From Escherichia coli (GTDB lineage Bacteria > Pseudomonadota > Gammaproteobacteria > Enterobacterales > Enterobacteriaceae), in the NCBI RefSeq assembly GCF_045037415.1, contig NZ_CP173439.1: 64,000 bases of DNA; one strand, given 5' to 3'. Below are positions 36,577 to 40,688 of this stretch, in pieces. The notes beneath the pieces are model-generated. The model worked only from the letters and a program-made list of their open reading frames with translations, made no database searches and had not been told where the DNA came from. Made by a program: the position numbers and the translations under genes. Within the stretch, counting starts at the first letter, position 1; each line of letters starts with the position of its first letter.

Positions 36577-36765
36577 ATGAAAAAACAATCTAAAGAAGTG
36601 AAAACCTCTGGCTCTGAACATCGTGAAATTATGATAGAAATTGATGCCTCTAAATCGACGAACGGTACCGGTGGAGGCTCCATCATTGAAGGGTCATACA
36701 CTGTCTATCGCTGCGATGGCGGAAGTGTCCCCTCGCGTCCTTTTGGCCCCCCATTCTGTCCTTAA
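36577..36765 (+). CDS. lasso-peptide (microcin-like) precursor
   Basis: 62-aa ORF with AAGGA ribosome-binding site; Lys/Glu-rich leader ending …SKSTN (Thr at -2), then Gly-rich core GTGGGSIIEGSYTVYRCDGGSVPSRPFGPPFCP with Glu at core position 9 and two Cys. Confidence 0.7.
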   Translation: MKKQSKEVKTSGSEHREIMIEIDASKSTNGTGGGSIIEGSYTVYRCDGGSVPSRPFGPPFCP

Positions 36766-36892
36766 ATTTAAAGGCTGGTCATGATTGAAATATTCACTTC
36801 TCTCAAACGAAAGCAATGAATCCGATAATACAGGTATATTCGATAAAAAGGACGTCTTTTGTGGCGTCCTTACCTTAAGGAGATTATTACGA

Positions 36893-38281
36893 ATGTCTTT
36901 GGGGGATAAATTTACATCTGGATACCGTGGGATTAATGCCTTCAATAGTGGCGTGATAAAACTTCTTGTTGCCAGAGAAAATGACTGGATTGAAGAAAAA
37001 CTTAGTGCCATTTTAACTCAATCACCTCGTATTGATTTCGAACCACTCATTGCGAGTATAGTTTTTGGGCGTACTGAGGGGAAAACTTCATTATTTAAAA
37101 ATGTGGAATGTATTGTTCCTGGTTGCAGTTTTAAAATTGACCACACGCACAATGGTGCATCCGTAAGTGAATATATTGACTGGAATGCAATTTCATATAA
37201 GACATTACCGCACGACCCGGCAGAGATTCTTTTTCAGTCTGTATCTGAAGTCGTCAACAGAAATCAAGGCGGATACTTTGTTGTGCGCCTGTCTGGTGGC
37301 ATGGACTCTACTGGCATTCTTCTCTCACTAATGGAGGCAGTTGATGTAAGCAGAATTATTGCCATAACTTATCGGTACCTTATGGGGACAAGCAATCAAG
37401 ATGAAGTATCAGCAAGGTATTTATGTAAAATATTTGGAATCAGGCAAATAATAATTGATTTTGAACCTCATTCATTATTTCATAGGCTTCCTTCACCAGT
37501 GCCTCCTGTTCTAAATATGAGAACAATAAATTTTAAAGTTTATGAAGAGGAAAGAAAGCGTATCGGAAGTATCTGTGGAGATAATTATACCCTGTTTGAT
37601 GGGCATGGGGGGGACCATGTATTTTGTGAGAAAATCCCGTTTGGAATAATAAAAGAGTTATTTTTCCATGGGAGTTTGTTAACCTCATGCCGTAAGTTAT
37701 TACAGATAGCTCGCCTTCATGGCATAAATATGAAAGATGTCTTATTAATGCATACTAATAGTATGCATTATCTTATAACTGAAGCACAGTGTTATTTTTC
37801 CAAAGATGTTATAAAAAACCTTCACTATGACAGAAAAACAGTAAGTGAAGAAAGAAAGTCAGCCCTTCAGGAGGCTATTCTTGATAATGGGACGAGCCTG
37901 ACGCTGAGTCTTACGGAAAACGATATATTCCCTTTTACAGACCAGAGGATGATAGGCTATGGTCTGAAACTCAGAGTTGAGGAGTCATTTGATACTACAT
38001 CAAAACGATTTCAATACAGAAAAGCGATTAATGACAGATATAAATTTGTATTTACCAGAAAAGATAAGGGGCATATAACAGGTGCATATCAGTCGGCCCT
38101 TAGTGTTAATAAGGACCGTGTTATTAATCTTCTGCGCCATGGGCAGTTCGCGACACACGGTTTGTTAAACTTGGAGGGGGTAGAGCGAGCAATAGAAACA
38201 AGTTCTCATGGCATCGGTGGAGTCAGTTTTATTCTTATGAAATTAATTGCTGCAGAACTTATCTTTGAAGGATATTTATAA
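36893..38281 (+). CDS. lasso-peptide cyclase (asparagine-synthetase-like)
   Basis: PP-loop ATP-pyrophosphatase motif VVRLSGGMDSTGIL typical of AsnB-like lasso cyclases. Start set at the ATG with AAGGAG ribosome-binding site (462 aa); the ORF track starts upstream at a TTG (498 aa). Confidence 0.75.
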   Translation: MSLGDKFTSGYRGINAFNSGVIKLLVARENDWIEEKLSAILTQSPRIDFEPLIASIVFGRTEGKTSLFKNVECIVPGCSFKIDHTHNGASVSEYIDWNAISYKTLPHDPAEILFQSVSEVVNRNQGGYFVVRLSGGMDSTGILLSLMEAVDVSRIIAITYRYLMGTSNQDEVSARYLCKIFGIRQIIIDFEPHSLFHRLPSPVPPVLNMRTINFKVYEEERKRIGSICGDNYTLFDGHGGDHVFCEKIPFGIIKELFFHGSLLTSCRKLLQIARLHGINMKDVLLMHTNSMHYLITEAQCYFSKDVIKNLHYDRKTVSEERKSALQEAILDNGTSLTLSLTENDIFPFTDQRMIGYGLKLRVEESFDTTSKRFQYRKAINDRYKFVFTRKDKGHITGAYQSALSVNKDRVINLLRHGQFATHGLLNLEGVERAIETSSHGIGGVSFILMKLIAAELIFEGYL

Positions 38282-38964
38282 TGACTTCATTCTACTTTAA
38301 GCCGAATATACATCATGTCAATATTAATAATGAAATAACTATCCTTGATGAGATATCTGATCGTTATATCCTTCTTTCAGAAAAGCAATCAATTCTCTTA
38401 AAAGAGTATATGAGTGATGGTTCTCATAATTATGTCGGTGATACAATGAACCTGGAAGGTATAATTTCTAAGGAGTCGGGTACTCCTTTGGCAAAGAGTA
38501 CTCCGTCTCCTCAGGGGGTTGGTATATTGACCTGGAACAGTTATGTCAGCACTCGGTTGGGTATTGCCAGTTTTTTTTATATCTCTGAAGCAATAATGAG
38601 AATGATTCTTGTCCGAAAACGTCTCCAGTCAAAGGGTTTTCACCATTGCCTTGAGCATTGTCGTTGTGCGCTTAGCCAGAAGAGTTTTCCGTACATTTCC
38701 CTGAAAGATAAATTAATTATTGGGCAGAAGTTGAGCCAGAGTATTAAAATTGCGGCACCGTTTATCCCGGGCAAGGTTAAATGCCTTGAGTTTTCACTTG
38801 TTTTGTTCGACATGTTAGTGTCAAGAAAAATCAGTCCCACATTATTTATTGGATTCCAGCGCTATGATTTTCTTTCTCATGCATGGCTGGAAATTGATAA
38901 TGAAGTGGTTGCAGACCAAGATAACCTGAAAACAAAACTTACACCAATAATTAGAGTGGGATAA
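38281..38964 (+). CDS. lasso-peptide leader peptidase, fused PqqD-like RRE and transglutaminase-like cysteine protease
   Basis: 227-aa ORF; N-terminal part resembles the PqqD-like recognition element (ITILDEISDRYILLSEKQSILLKEY); C-terminal part has Cys…His…Asp (CLEHCRC … FLSHAWLEIDNEVVADQD) as in McjB-type peptidases; start overlaps the cyclase stop (TAATG). Confidence 0.7.
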   Translation: MTSFYFKPNIHHVNINNEITILDEISDRYILLSEKQSILLKEYMSDGSHNYVGDTMNLEGIISKESGTPLAKSTPSPQGVGILTWNSYVSTRLGIASFFYISEAIMRMILVRKRLQSKGFHHCLEHCRCALSQKSFPYISLKDKLIIGQKLSQSIKIAAPFIPGKVKCLEFSLVLFDMLVSRKISPTLFIGFQRYDFLSHAWLEIDNEVVADQDNLKTKLTPIIRVG

Positions 38965-40688
38965 TGAAAATAAAAAATGTCATTTGTGAATTAAAATCAG
39001 GGGCAAGTGCTTACTCTTCGGCCTACAAGCTCATACGCTCACTGTATCCCGCATTCACATTTTCTTTTATCGGTGTGTCCATTCTCTTTATTCTGGCTTC
39101 GGTTCTTGGTGCATTACTTCCTTATCTGCTCAAAAAGACAGCGGAGGCGTATACTTTCTCTGAAGGGATATTATCTGCATTTTTCCTGATCACAATGACC
39201 TACGCCGTCAGCTGGACAGTGACCGAAGTACTGAAGAATATCAGAGGCATTTTTTCTGCGGGAATTCTGGCACAAGCAGATGCAGCACTAACCAGTAACA
39301 CGATGGAGATTTTACTTTCTATTAGTTTCCGGAAACAAAAGGAATTTGAGCCGGCGGTCCTGGCTGCAAATATTGATCGTGGCGCGCAATCATTCAGTGC
39401 GCTGACATTATCTGTTTTCTGGACACTACTCCCAATTACTGTAGAAATCAGTATGGCTGTTTATTTTCTTTATCAGAGTCTGGGTTTTACTTATTCACTT
39501 ATTTTCTCAATTTCTGTTATAGGTATGATTTTTCTTGCCTTCAGCATAGCGATCTTTAGTCGTCATATCCATACCGATATAATGAATACTCAGAATGGGG
39601 TGTATTCTTATACGATTGAGCGACTTGCCATGCCGTTGGATATCCGAATTAATTCAGCTCATGCAAAAGAAAGAGTTCTTCGCCAGGAAATTCTTAATCA
39701 GTATGTTAATACAATTAAGCTGACCAATAAAAAAATGGGCTTTTTACTGTCACTACAGGCAGTAGCTGTAGGCGTATTGCTTGCTATATCCGTACTGGTT
39801 CTGGTTTTTTTTAAAAAAGCGTCTCATATTGGAACTGGTGACTTTATTATGATTGTGGGCTATATTAGCATGCTAACATTTCAGTTGCGCACAATAGCCG
39901 GAGCCAGCATTGACATTCAACGCCAGATTGTGTACCTGAAAATTCTTCTGGAATATAACAGTATGCATCCCGAAGGGGTTATCCCTGATACAGTAAGCTC
40001 CCGCAGCACTGAGCGTATTTTTGATGTGCGTAATCTTGGAGCTTTTGCTGACGGCAGACTCCTCTTTAATAATGTGAGCTTCAGGATCCATGAAGGTGAA
40101 ATGTTTGCACTTTCTGCGCCTTCAGGTTTTGGTAAATCCACAATTCTGCAATATTTACTCGGTCTTGATACCCCAACTGAGGGCGATATTTATTTCCGAG
40201 GATACCGGATTAACACAGAGTTGAGTGCGTCTATCCTGGAGGACGTTGCTGTTGTGCCTCAAAAAGCCGTTCTGGTGCAGGGAACTATTCGTGATAATAT
40301 TCTGTATGGAACCGATGACATTCTTCCCGATGATGAACTGTTTTGCATCCTGAATTCATTGGGGTTAATTAAAGAGGACTGCGGAGAACATTTCCTTGCT
40401 TTCCTAGACCGGGATATTAATCCTCTGGGTAGTGGTTTGAGTGGTGGAGAGATCCAGCGATTATGCATAGCCCGCGCCCTAGCCCGTAAGAAAAAGATTA
40501 TCGTACTTGATGAACCCACGGCCTCTATTGGCGAAGAACTCGCGATAAAGATCATTACCTATATCCGGCAGCATTGCCCTACCGTTATTATTACAACTCA
40601 TAATCCACGAATTCTGGAGCTCGCCGATCATTTTTTTGATGGTATGTCAAAGTCTTGCGTCATTGCTGGAGAAGGCAGAGACCAATAA
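38964..40688 (+). CDS. ABC exporter (fused permease and ATPase), McjD-like export/immunity candidate
   Basis: 574-aa ORF with N-terminal six-helix membrane domain and C-terminal nucleotide-binding domain (Walker A SAPSGFGKST, signature LSGGEIQR, Walker B IIVLDEPT); start overlaps the peptidase stop (ATAATG). Confidence 0.85.
   Translation: MKIKNVICELKSGASAYSSAYKLIRSLYPAFTFSFIGVSILFILASVLGALLPYLLKKTAEAYTFSEGILSAFFLITMTYAVSWTVTEVLKNIRGIFSAGILAQADAALTSNTMEILLSISFRKQKEFEPAVLAANIDRGAQSFSALTLSVFWTLLPITVEISMAVYFLYQSLGFTYSLIFSISVIGMIFLAFSIAIFSRHIHTDIMNTQNGVYSYTIERLAMPLDIRINSAHAKERVLRQEILNQYVNTIKLTNKKMGFLLSLQAVAVGVLLAISVLVLVFFKKASHIGTGDFIMIVGYISMLTFQLRTIAGASIDIQRQIVYLKILLEYNSMHPEGVIPDTVSSRSTERIFDVRNLGAFADGRLLFNNVSFRIHEGEMFALSAPSGFGKSTILQYLLGLDTPTEGDIYFRGYRINTELSASILEDVAVVPQKAVLVQGTIRDNILYGTDDILPDDELFCILNSLGLIKEDCGEHFLAFLDRDINPLGSGLSGGEIQRLCIARALARKKKIIVLDEPTASIGEELAIKIITYIRQHCPTVIITTHNPRILELADHFFDGMSKSCVIAGEGRDQ

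What the first reader, a model, noticed from the sequence alone, without database searches (positions are those of the whole stretch)
36577..40688. Plasmid-borne lasso-peptide (microcin J25-like) biosynthesis and export cluster on a low-GC island
Four co-directional, translationally coupled genes carry the full hallmark set of a lasso-peptide system: a 62-aa precursor; an asparagine-synthetase-like cyclase with the PP-loop motif SGGMDS; a fused PqqD-like RRE and transglutaminase-like Cys/His/Asp leader peptidase; and a McjD-like ABC exporter. The gene order is precursor-cyclase-peptidase-exporter, unlike microcin J25 (divergent mcjA, then mcjBCD). The precursor does not resemble the microcin J25, citrocin, klebsidin or microcin Y cores as I recall them. 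The cluster is visibly AT-rich relative to the flanking ccd/GC-rich module, suggesting horizontal acquisition, and is bordered on the right by a MITE-like element and IS21. This may encode an undescribed antibacterial microcin.
Basis: partly seen in the sequence, partly recalled or inferred. Interest (0 to 1): 0.9.

Follow-up and report, generated by a model that had tools for sequence, protein, structure and literature searches.

The report
Uncharacterised plasmid-borne E. coli lasso peptide cluster
This is an intact four-gene cluster on an E. coli plasmid that should make and export a knotted "lasso" peptide unlike any characterised one; it is probably an iron-regulated antibacterial microcin, and nobody appears to have studied it.

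Summary
Window 36577-40688 (+) carries four intact genes: a 62-aa precursor, a 462-aa asparagine-synthetase-fold cyclase with a SGGMDS PP-loop, a 227-aa fused RRE/transglutaminase-like protease, and a 574-aa ABC half-transporter.

Profile, structural and comparative tests all support a lasso peptide cluster. Twelve related loci (Escherichia, Salmonella, Pseudomonas, Cupriavidus) keep the order A-C-B-D. Their precursors share only one Gly/Glu pair that allows a legal ring, Gly1-Glu9. The predicted core is 33 aa with two tail cysteines, which is class-IV-like (inferred).

All four genes are under purifying selection (dN/dS 0.07-0.30). The enzymes are only 22-37% identical to those of microcin J25 and pandonodin. 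The core lacks the hallmarks of the RNA-polymerase-inhibiting group.

A Fur-box-like site sits just upstream of the -35 element. It is conserved in position in six diverged enterobacterial loci, so iron regulation is likely.

The cluster is complete in 23 of 5,426 complete E. coli genomes, always on a plasmid. The exact precursor is on at least 1,000 contigs and is always labelled "hypothetical protein". I found no paper on it.

Verdict: a new member of a known kind.

The parts
36454..36478 (+). Fur-box-like array (GATGATAAAAATGATTATCATTCGC), ending 1 nt before the -35 hexamer
   Evidence: It matches the Fur consensus at 15 of 19 positions. The best Fur match (15-17 of 19) falls at the same offset (-118 to -127 from the ATG) in six diverged enterobacterial loci, and at most 9 of 2000 shuffles reach each score. 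Binding by Fur is inferred, not shown.
36480..36507 (+). Sigma-70-type promoter candidate: TTGACA, 16 nt, TATATT
   Evidence: It is the best promoter-like site in 35900-41500, matching 11 of 12 positions. ATTGACA is invariant in the alignment of six loci.
36577..36765 (+). Precursor gene (62 aa). Predicted leader is residues 1-29 (36577-36663). Predicted core is residues 30-62 (36664-36762): GTGGGSIIEGSYTVYRCDGGSVPSRPFGPPFCP
   Evidence: ORF, with an AAGGAA Shine-Dalgarno 5 nt upstream. Homologous precursors lie upstream of every related cyclase. dN/dS is 0.067 against L002. The cleavage site and ring are inferred from conservation.
36848..36871 (+). Conserved stem-loop (AAGGACG...CGTCCTT) just upstream of the cyclase Shine-Dalgarno
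   Evidence: A 7-bp stem is kept in six loci although the rest of the spacer diverges. There are no compensatory changes. Its function is unknown; it may set the A:CBD expression ratio.
36893..38281 (+). Lasso cyclase (C), 462 aa, AsnB-fold ATP-dependent lactam synthetase with PP-loop SGGMDS (aa 134-139) and DGHGGDH (aa 236-242)
38281..38964 (+). Fused B protein, 227 aa: N-terminal RRE (about aa 1-60) and C-terminal transglutaminase-like Cys protease (C168/H200/D212)
38964..40688 (+). ABC exporter (D), 574 aa, fused permease-ATPase half-transporter without a C39 peptidase domain

Best explanation
This is a complete, functional lasso peptide (RiPP) operon carried on conjugative IncF-type plasmids.

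Proposed steps:
1. The 62-aa precursor is bound through its leader by the N-terminal RRE of the B protein. The leader has a conserved alternating-hydrophobic stretch followed by A-S-x-x-T-N.
2. The C-terminal Cys-His-Asp protease of B cuts after Asn29 and frees Gly1 of a 33-aa core.
3. The AsnB-fold cyclase adenylates the side chain of Glu9 and joins it to the Gly1 amine. This gives a 9-residue macrolactam ring through which the tail is threaded.
4. Tyr12, Tyr15 and Arg16 are the likely steric locks.
5. Cys17 and Cys32 probably close a disulfide loop within the long proline-rich tail (class-IV topology).
6. The ABC half-transporter exports the peptide and probably gives self-immunity.
7. Transcription probably starts from the promoter at 36480-36507 and is probably repressed by Fur, so the peptide would be made under iron limitation.
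8. The most likely role is a narrow-spectrum antibacterial microcin.

Basis: the gene set, folds, catalytic residues, conservation and selection are shown. The cleavage site, ring, disulfide, threading, iron regulation and antibacterial activity are inferred.
For: Gene set and family assignments:
- B2 protease scores above the curated cut-off and hits PF13471.
- The catalytic triad aligns with that of McjB; C168 and H200 are invariant in 49 homologues.
- Cyclase: PF00733 is hit in 26 of 26 family members. The AF2 model has pLDDT 89. The best Foldseek hits are TsnB9, carbapenam synthetase, beta-lactam synthetase and AsnB at E 6e-10 to 1e-6 over about 480 columns. The PP-loop is invariant.

Precursor family:
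- In 12 loci, Gly1, Glu9 and Gly10 are invariant.
- Positions 3 and 4 are not always Gly, so the 9-residue ring is the only legal one shared by all.
- Thr is at -2 in 9 of 12.

Function retained:
- dN/dS is 0.07-0.30 for all four genes.
- 100% identical copies occur in several plasmids.
- The exact precursor is on at least 1000 contigs.

Iron regulation:
- A Fur-like box conserved in position lies next to the invariant -35 hexamer.

Bacteriocin context:
- The cluster abuts an orphan colicin immunity gene and a truncated colicin pore domain.
Against: - No product has been observed.
- The cyclase scores only 19 bits against NCBIfam's lasso cyclase model (cut-off 525). Its best NCBIfam match, the albusnodin/ikarugamycin-type macrolactam cyclase, reaches 57 bits against a cut-off of 300.
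- The RRE is invisible to Pfam, and Foldseek E-values for the B model are not significant.
- A Pseudomonas subgroup has Ile rather than Thr at -2.
- An ABC exporter does not prove antibiotic activity. To my recollection, no antibacterial activity was reported for pandonodin, which also has an exporter.
- Most E. coli genomes with a match (107 of 130) hold only fragments. The Salmonella salamae copy has a broken D gene. The cluster is therefore often lost.
- The Fur box is a consensus match, not a binding result.
Confidence: 0.85

Rival explanations
1. It is a real lasso peptide, but not an antibiotic. The exported peptide would serve another role, such as signalling, metal or receptor binding, or a plasmid or host fitness factor. 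The exporter would only secrete it.
For: - The core lacks the features shared by the proteobacterial RNA-polymerase inhibitors: the 8-residue ring followed by Tyr/Phe, and the C-terminal aromatic-Gly end.
- Pandonodin, the characterised proteobacterial 33-aa tail-disulfide lasso peptide, has an exporter, and I recall no reported activity for it.
- No separate immunity gene is present.
Against: - The cluster is on conjugative plasmids beside colicin genes.
- A Fur-type box is typical of enterobacterial bacteriocin and microcin loci (established knowledge for colicins and siderophore-microcins).
- The C-terminal half is hypervariable between close relatives, as expected for a molecule in an arms race.
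Confidence: 0.3
2. The cluster is a silent or decaying relic. It would be carried along in a mosaic, IS-rich plasmid region and no longer expressed.
For: - 107 of 130 E. coli genomes with a match keep only fragments. The commonest is the last 477 nt of D next to IS3 in large avian-pathogenic-type plasmids.
- The D gene is frameshifted in the S. salamae plasmid.
- Insertion sequences interrupt or border the region in several plasmids.
Against: - In this window all four ORFs are full length and 100% identical to copies in four other plasmids.
- dN/dS is 0.07-0.30.
- The promoter, Shine-Dalgarno sites and one-base overlaps are intact.
- The promoter region is conserved across relatives whose proteins are about 50% identical.
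Confidence: 0.1
3. The peptide is a lasso peptide with a different ring from the one proposed. One example is a 7-residue ring from the third residue (GGGSIIE, Gly3-Glu9 in my numbering), with cleavage after Thr31 of the precursor.
For: - Seven-residue rings exist in nature.
- In the E. coli peptide, residues 3-5 are all Gly, so the sequence alone allows it.
Against: - Position 3 is Ser in one Pseudomonas-type precursor (L009) and Pro in P. citronellolis; position 4 is Ser in L007. Gly1 is invariant.
- The conserved Thr would then lie at -4 and not at -2.
Confidence: 0.07

Closest known systems
Microcin J25 system (mcjABCD) of E. coli plasmids
   Same: - Plasmid-borne in E. coli.
- Same four functions: precursor, fused RRE-protease B, AsnB-like cyclase C and ABC exporter D.
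- The Cys/His/Asp triad of McjB is conserved.
- Thr at -2, Gly1 and a Glu acceptor.
   Different: - The enzymes are only distantly related: C 23% over 309 aa, B 37% over 62 aa, D 24% over 501 aa.
- Gene order is A-C-B-D on one strand, against divergent mcjA then mcjB-C-D.
- The cyclase is 462 aa against 513 aa.
- Predicted ring of 9 residues instead of 8.
- Core of 33 aa instead of 21 aa.
- Two Cys are present.
- There is no Tyr9 and no C-terminal FYG.
Pandonodin (panABCD, Pandoraea norimbergensis), a class IV lasso peptide
   Same: - Proteobacterial.
- 33-aa peptide with a short loop and a very long tail that carries a tail-tail disulfide.
- Glu acceptor followed by Gly.
- Fused B protein and ABC exporter.
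   Different: - No detectable similarity between the cores. The PDB search with the core did not find 6Q1X, and this also follows from the PanA sequence.
- PanC is 22% identical and PanB 23% identical.
- PanC is about 120 aa longer.
- Gene order is A-B-C-D.
- The pan cluster is chromosomal (NZ_CP013480.3), not plasmid-borne.
Citrocin, klebsidin, microcin Y, cloacaenodin (enterobacterial RNA-polymerase-inhibiting lasso peptides)
   Same: - Enterobacterial lasso peptides with an exporter.
- A Gly-rich ring ending in hydrophobic-hydrophobic-Glu. The I-I-E of citrocin and klebsidin is recalled from memory, not tested here.
   Different: - Those peptides have an 8-residue ring followed directly by Tyr/Phe, a long loop, a short tail ending in aromatic-Gly, and no Cys (for the group features).
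- Here Glu9 is followed by Gly-Ser, the tail is long and Pro-rich, and there are two Cys.

Membership tests
Lasso peptide biosynthetic gene cluster (RiPP class) | B2: transglutaminase-like cysteine protease with a Cys-His-Asp triad | tested here: met
   NF033537 scores 82.4 bits against a cut-off of 33. PF13471 hits at 2.7e-16. C168/H200/D212 align to McjB C150/H182/D194. C168 and H200 are invariant in 49 sequences.
Lasso peptide biosynthetic gene cluster (RiPP class) | B1/RRE: PqqD-like leader-binding domain, free or fused | tested here: met
Lasso peptide biosynthetic gene cluster (RiPP class) | C: asparagine-synthetase-B-like, ATP-dependent lactam synthetase with a PP-loop | tested here: met
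   PF00733 hits at 1.5e-4 for this protein and in 26 of 26 relatives, best 1.5e-14. SGGMDS is invariant. Foldseek matches TsnB9, CarA, beta-LS and AsnB at E 6e-10 to 1e-6 over the full length. BLASTP gives E 1e-7 to McjC and 2e-14 to PanC.
Lasso peptide biosynthetic gene cluster (RiPP class) | Match to NCBIfam's curated lasso cyclase model NF033535 above its cut-off | tested here: not met
   The score is 19.4 bits against a cut-off of 525. The best NCBIfam hit is NF033561 (albusnodin/ikarugamycin-type macrolactam cyclase) at 57 bits against 300. The model is labelled an 'exception' type built on one lineage, so failing it shows divergence and does not exclude the protein from the class.
Lasso peptide biosynthetic gene cluster (RiPP class) | Precursor with a leader ending in Thr(-2) and a core with Gly/Ala/Ser/Cys at position 1 and Asp/Glu at position 7-9 | tested here: met
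   The junction reads ...S-T-N | G-T-G-G-G-S-I-I-E. Gly1 and Glu9 are invariant in 12 precursors, and Thr(-2) occurs in 9 of 12.
Lasso peptide biosynthetic gene cluster (RiPP class) | Mature product: loss of one water, isopeptide ring and a threaded (rotaxane) tail | not testable with these tools
   This needs LC-MS/MS, heat and carboxypeptidase assays, or NMR.
Microcin J25-type RNA-polymerase-inhibiting lasso peptides | 8-residue Gly1-Glu8 ring followed by Tyr/Phe9, and a C-terminal aromatic steric lock near the end (FYG/YYG/HYG) | tested here: not met
   The core has Glu at 9 followed by Gly-Ser and ends in PPFCP. The group features are as described.
Microcin J25-type RNA-polymerase-inhibiting lasso peptides | Close homology of the B, C and D proteins to McjB, McjC and McjD | tested here: not met
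   Local identity is 23-37%. McjC is absent from the hit list of the cyclase search. McjD is not among the 60 best PDB sequence matches of D.
Class IV lasso peptides (one tail-tail disulfide) | Exactly two Cys, both outside the ring, joined by a disulfide | tested here: inconclusive
   Cys17 and Cys32 both lie in the predicted tail. Two Cys are kept in 11 of 12 family members, although their positions move. Disulfide formation itself cannot be tested here.
Microcins (small antibacterial peptides of Enterobacteriaceae) | Under 10 kDa, produced by enterobacteria, with antibacterial activity and dedicated export/immunity | tested here: inconclusive
   The size (3.3 kDa), the host range (Escherichia 152, Klebsiella 4, Salmonella 2, Shigella 1 plasmids) and the exporter are met. 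Activity and immunity are not testable here.

The most novel reading that the evidence does not exclude
The cluster would represent a separate, previously unstudied lineage of Fur-controlled lasso microcins. In this lineage a conserved scaffold (ring G-x-G-G-G-x-I-x-E plus G-S-Y-x-V-Y) carries a hypervariable, disulfide-closed C-terminal module. That module would decide which outer-membrane receptor or intracellular target is hit. One biosynthetic family would then span the no-disulfide, ring-tail and tail-tail disulfide classes, and would act on a target other than RNA polymerase.
Probability: 0.25. Interest if true: 0.7.

Novelty: new member of a known kind. Interest (0 to 1): 0.5.

Why it matters
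Microcin J25, found in 1992, is still the only lasso peptide known to be made natively by E. coli, and only a few enterobacterial lasso peptides have been characterised.

- This locus would add a second, unrelated lasso peptide in E. coli. It is carried on conjugative plasmids of human, animal and environmental isolates and is seen on at least 1,000 sequenced contigs.
- Its core sequence fits none of the known target classes, so it could reveal a new uptake route or target in Enterobacteriaceae.
- The conserved ring with a variable tail is a natural template for peptide engineering.
- The test is cheap. The cluster is 4.3 kb, already sits in E. coli, and has an exact predicted mass.
- Current annotation hides it. 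The precursor is always called 'hypothetical protein', and the cyclase is often named 7-cyano-7-deazaguanine synthase.

Tried and rejected
- **Literature.** I searched the full text for six peptide strings from the family, the four RefSeq protein accessions, and several keyword sets. Nothing on this cluster was found. The LassoPred supplement is not held, and the pandonodin paper is not held.
- **PDB sequence searches.** The single cyclase and B proteins gave nothing useful. The cyclase family profile hit only the PP-loop of QueC, LarE and NAD synthetase. Structure prediction was therefore needed.
- **Word-index search with the precursor.** It found only near-identical copies. Distant precursors had to be read out of the DNA upstream of cyclase homologues.
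- **Anti-phage defence hypothesis.** PADLOC matched only the generic ABC ATPase. Rejected.
- **A-C spacer as an intrinsic terminator.** No terminator-like site lies there, and the fold z-score is -1.4. Only a short conserved hairpin without covariation is present.
- **Pandonodin family membership.** Considered because of the identical length and tail disulfide. Rejected because of the sequences and the gene order.

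
Full report
**1. What is in the sequence**

The + strand between 36577 and 40688 holds four ORFs.
- The 62-aa precursor (36577-36765) is preceded by AAGGAA.
- The cyclase runs from 36893 to 38281. The mechanical ORF starts at a TTG (498 aa), but the ATG at 36893 follows an AAGGAG Shine-Dalgarno. 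It gives the 462-aa protein that RefSeq annotates.
- The 227-aa B protein runs from 38281 to 38964.
- The 574-aa ABC protein runs from 38964 to 40688.

C/B and B/D overlap by one base in TAATG.

GC is 0.40 in the cluster, 0.49 in the window as a whole and 0.585 just to the left.

**2. Family assignments**

*B protein*
- It passes NCBIfam's curated lasso B2 model: 82.4 bits against a cut-off of 33. It also hits Pfam Transglut_core3 at 2.7e-16.
- In BLASTP against McjB, taken from a microcin J25 plasmid fetched for this purpose, Cys168/His200/Asp212 align with Cys150/His182/Asp194.
- Cys168 and His200 are invariant in 49 homologues.
- Pfam sees no PqqD domain. An AlphaFold model built on those 49 sequences has mean pLDDT 94. 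Its N-terminus is three strands followed by helices.
- Foldseek on the same model ranked the same proteins high, but without significant E-values.

*Cyclase*
- It is very divergent. Pfam Asn_synthase hits at only 1.5e-4. NCBIfam's lasso cyclase model gives 19 bits against a cut-off of 525.
- All 26 relatives hit Asn_synthase, best 1.5e-14.
- SGGMDS and DGHGGDH are invariant.
- The AlphaFold model (pLDDT 89) matches TsnB9, carbapenam synthetase, beta-lactam synthetase and asparagine synthetase B over about 480 columns, at E 6e-10 to 1e-6.

*D protein*
- It is a full-length permease-ATPase half-transporter.
- It is 24% identical to McjD, and McjD is not among its 60 best PDB matches.

**3. Relatives and the precursor family**

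The cyclase has a small family.
- E. coli: 541 sequences in the 90% cluster.
- One relative is 80% identical.
- Salmonella and other relatives are about 50% identical.
- Pseudomonas and Cupriavidus relatives are about 30% identical.

Every locus fetched has the order small ORF - C - B - D. I read twelve distinct precursors out of the DNA and aligned them.
- *Leader.* It ends in an alternating hydrophobic stretch, then A-S-x-x-T-N.
- *Core start.* It begins G-x-G-G-G-x-(I/L/V)-(I/L/M/V)-E-G, then x-(Y/W/F/R)-x-(V/I)-(Y/W/F/R)-(R/H/K/M).
- *Ring.* Gly1, Glu9 and Gly10 are invariant. Positions 3 and 4 are not always Gly. Gly1-Glu9 is therefore the only ring of allowed size (7-9 residues) shared by all.
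- *Thr(-2).* It is present in 9 of 12; a Pseudomonas subgroup has Ile.
- *Tail.* Beyond residue 16 the sequences diverge completely.
- *Cysteines.* Eleven of twelve keep exactly two Cys. Both lie in the tail in the enterobacterial, L007, L008 and Cupriavidus peptides (class-IV-like). One is in the ring (position 6) and one in the tail in a Pseudomonas subgroup (class-III-like). P. citronellolis has none.

For this window the predicted core is GTGGGSIIEGSYTVYRCDGGSVPSRPFGPPFCP. Its monoisotopic mass is 3296.50 after loss of water and two hydrogens. The cleavage site, ring, disulfide and steric locks (Tyr12, Tyr15, Arg16) are inferences.

**4. Is it functional?**

Against the 80%-identical relative L002, dN/dS is 0.07 for A, 0.15 for C, 0.30 for B and 0.16 for D.

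The 4.4-kb region is 100% identical in four other plasmids and at least 99.4% identical in 22.

In the 5,426 complete E. coli genomes:
- 23 carry at least 80% of the cluster, always on plasmids;
- 107 more carry fragments, most often the last 477 nt of D next to IS3.

The exact precursor sequence is on at least 1,000 contigs of the protein collection, always as 'hypothetical' or 'uncharacterized'.

The cluster is therefore maintained by selection where it is complete, but it is often lost.

**5.

The best promoter-like site in the region is TTGACA-16 nt-TATATT at 36480-36507.

Directly upstream, 36454-36478 resembles the Fur box. In six enterobacterial loci whose proteins are as little as 48% identical, the best match to the 19-nt Fur consensus behaves the same way:
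- it scores 15-17 of 19;
- it lies at the same offset, ending just before an invariant ATTGACA;
- it is reached by at most 9 of 2000 shuffles of each 200-nt upstream region.

The consensus of the aligned regions, GATAATGAAAATCATTATC, differs from the Fur consensus at one position.

I infer iron-dependent repression. That is common for enterobacterial bacteriocins taken up through siderophore receptors (established knowledge), but binding was not tested.

A 7-bp hairpin at 36848-36871, just before the cyclase Shine-Dalgarno, is conserved in sequence in the six loci without compensatory changes. Its role is unknown.

**6. Comparison with known systems**

*Microcin J25.* Enzyme identity is 23% (C), 37% over the catalytic 62 residues (B) and 24% (D). 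Gene order, ring size, core length and cysteines all differ.

*Pandonodin.* It is the characterised proteobacterial 33-aa lasso peptide with a long tail and a tail-tail disulfide.
- Its sequences came from the supplement of PMC13003496.
- PanC is 22% identical and PanB 23% identical.
- The cores are unrelated: the core query did not find PDB 6Q1X.
- The gene order there is A-B-C-D.

*RNA-polymerase inhibitors.* The group has an 8-residue ring followed by Tyr/Phe, a long loop and a short aromatic tail. That pattern is not matched here.

The locus is thus a lasso cluster by every testable defining feature, but it is not a member of any characterised subfamily.

**7. Novelty**

No paper in the held library contains the peptide strings, the RefSeq accessions or a description of such a cluster. 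A 2026 review of interlocked peptides lists no such enterobacterial peptide in the passages read. These checks cannot exclude a paper outside the library, or a listing in a genome-mining supplement.

PGAP already labels the B gene 'lasso peptide biosynthesis B2 protein'. The existence of a lasso cluster is therefore implicit in public annotation. The peptide, its family, its likely iron control and its prevalence are not.

I rate it a new member of a known kind.

**8. Context**

To the left lie an intact 115-aa colicin E1-family immunity gene (35574-35921, +) and a convergent 96-codon C-terminal fragment of a pore-forming colicin (35939-36229, -). The lasso promoter region begins where the colicin is truncated.

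To the right lie a 280-bp miniature inverted-repeat element, a doc/phd pair and IS21.

A 97-nt inverted repeat (35078-35174 / 41045-41141, 95% complementary) brackets the whole low-GC island.

Noticed in passing
window 35078-35174 and 41045-41141: A 97-nt inverted repeat (95% complementary) brackets the whole 5.9-kb low-GC island: colicin immunity gene, colicin fragment, lasso cluster and miniature element. The left arm overlaps the 3' end of the DUF6404 gene. It might mark a past inversion or the borders of a mobilised segment.
   Followed up: no
window 35574-35921 (+) and 35939-36229 (-): There is an intact orphan 'colicin E1 family' immunity gene, and convergent to it only the last 96 codons of a pore-forming colicin, with no standard start codon. 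The colicin was truncated exactly where the upstream region of the lasso cluster begins. A second Fur-box-like site (16 of 19) lies at 35507-35531, upstream of the immunity gene. In NZ_CP069461.1 an IS3 element splits this immunity gene.
   Followed up: partly
window 40712-40991: A 280-bp element has 40-nt terminal inverted repeats that begin GGGGTTGTACGCCGG, and it has no ORF. Copies at 91-94% identity occur at unrelated sites. It matches in 398 of 5,426 E. coli genomes, at 196 chromosomal and 392 plasmid places, none annotated. The GGGG start recalls Tn3-family ends, so it may be a Tn3-derived miniature element; that rests on memory and was not tested.
   Followed up: partly
window 40984-41039 and 42150-42205: A 56-nt inverted repeat (89% complementary) brackets the doc/phd toxin-antitoxin pair (41466-42124, - strand), as if the pair were a small cassette.
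   Followed up: no
E. coli plasmids such as NZ_CP005931.1, NZ_CP127301.1 and NZ_CP172182.1: About 100 large plasmids, many from poultry isolates, keep only the last 477 nt of the exporter gene (window 40212-40688) directly next to an IS3-family transposase. This is a fixed scar of the cluster, and it is more common than the intact cluster.
   Followed up: no
L018 (Salmonella enterica subsp. salamae plasmid CP053317.1), 5510-7221: This 87%-identical copy of the cluster has its exporter gene split into 295-aa and 275-aa ORFs, while A, C and B are intact. Its precursor differs at three core positions (D18N, S21V, V22I).
   Followed up: partly
RefSeq and GenBank annotation of the cyclase: The cyclase is variously annotated as 'hypothetical protein', 'asparagine synthase-related protein' or, wrongly, '7-cyano-7-deazaguanine synthase' (QueC). 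The QueC name arises because only the PP-loop is recognised.
   Followed up: yes
window 34245-35098 (+): Two overlapping ORFs (89 and 198 aa) lie in a 61-65% GC patch with no NCBIfam match. They are conserved as 'hypothetical protein' beside the DUF6404 gene in related plasmids. Their composition is strikingly different from everything around them.
   Followed up: no
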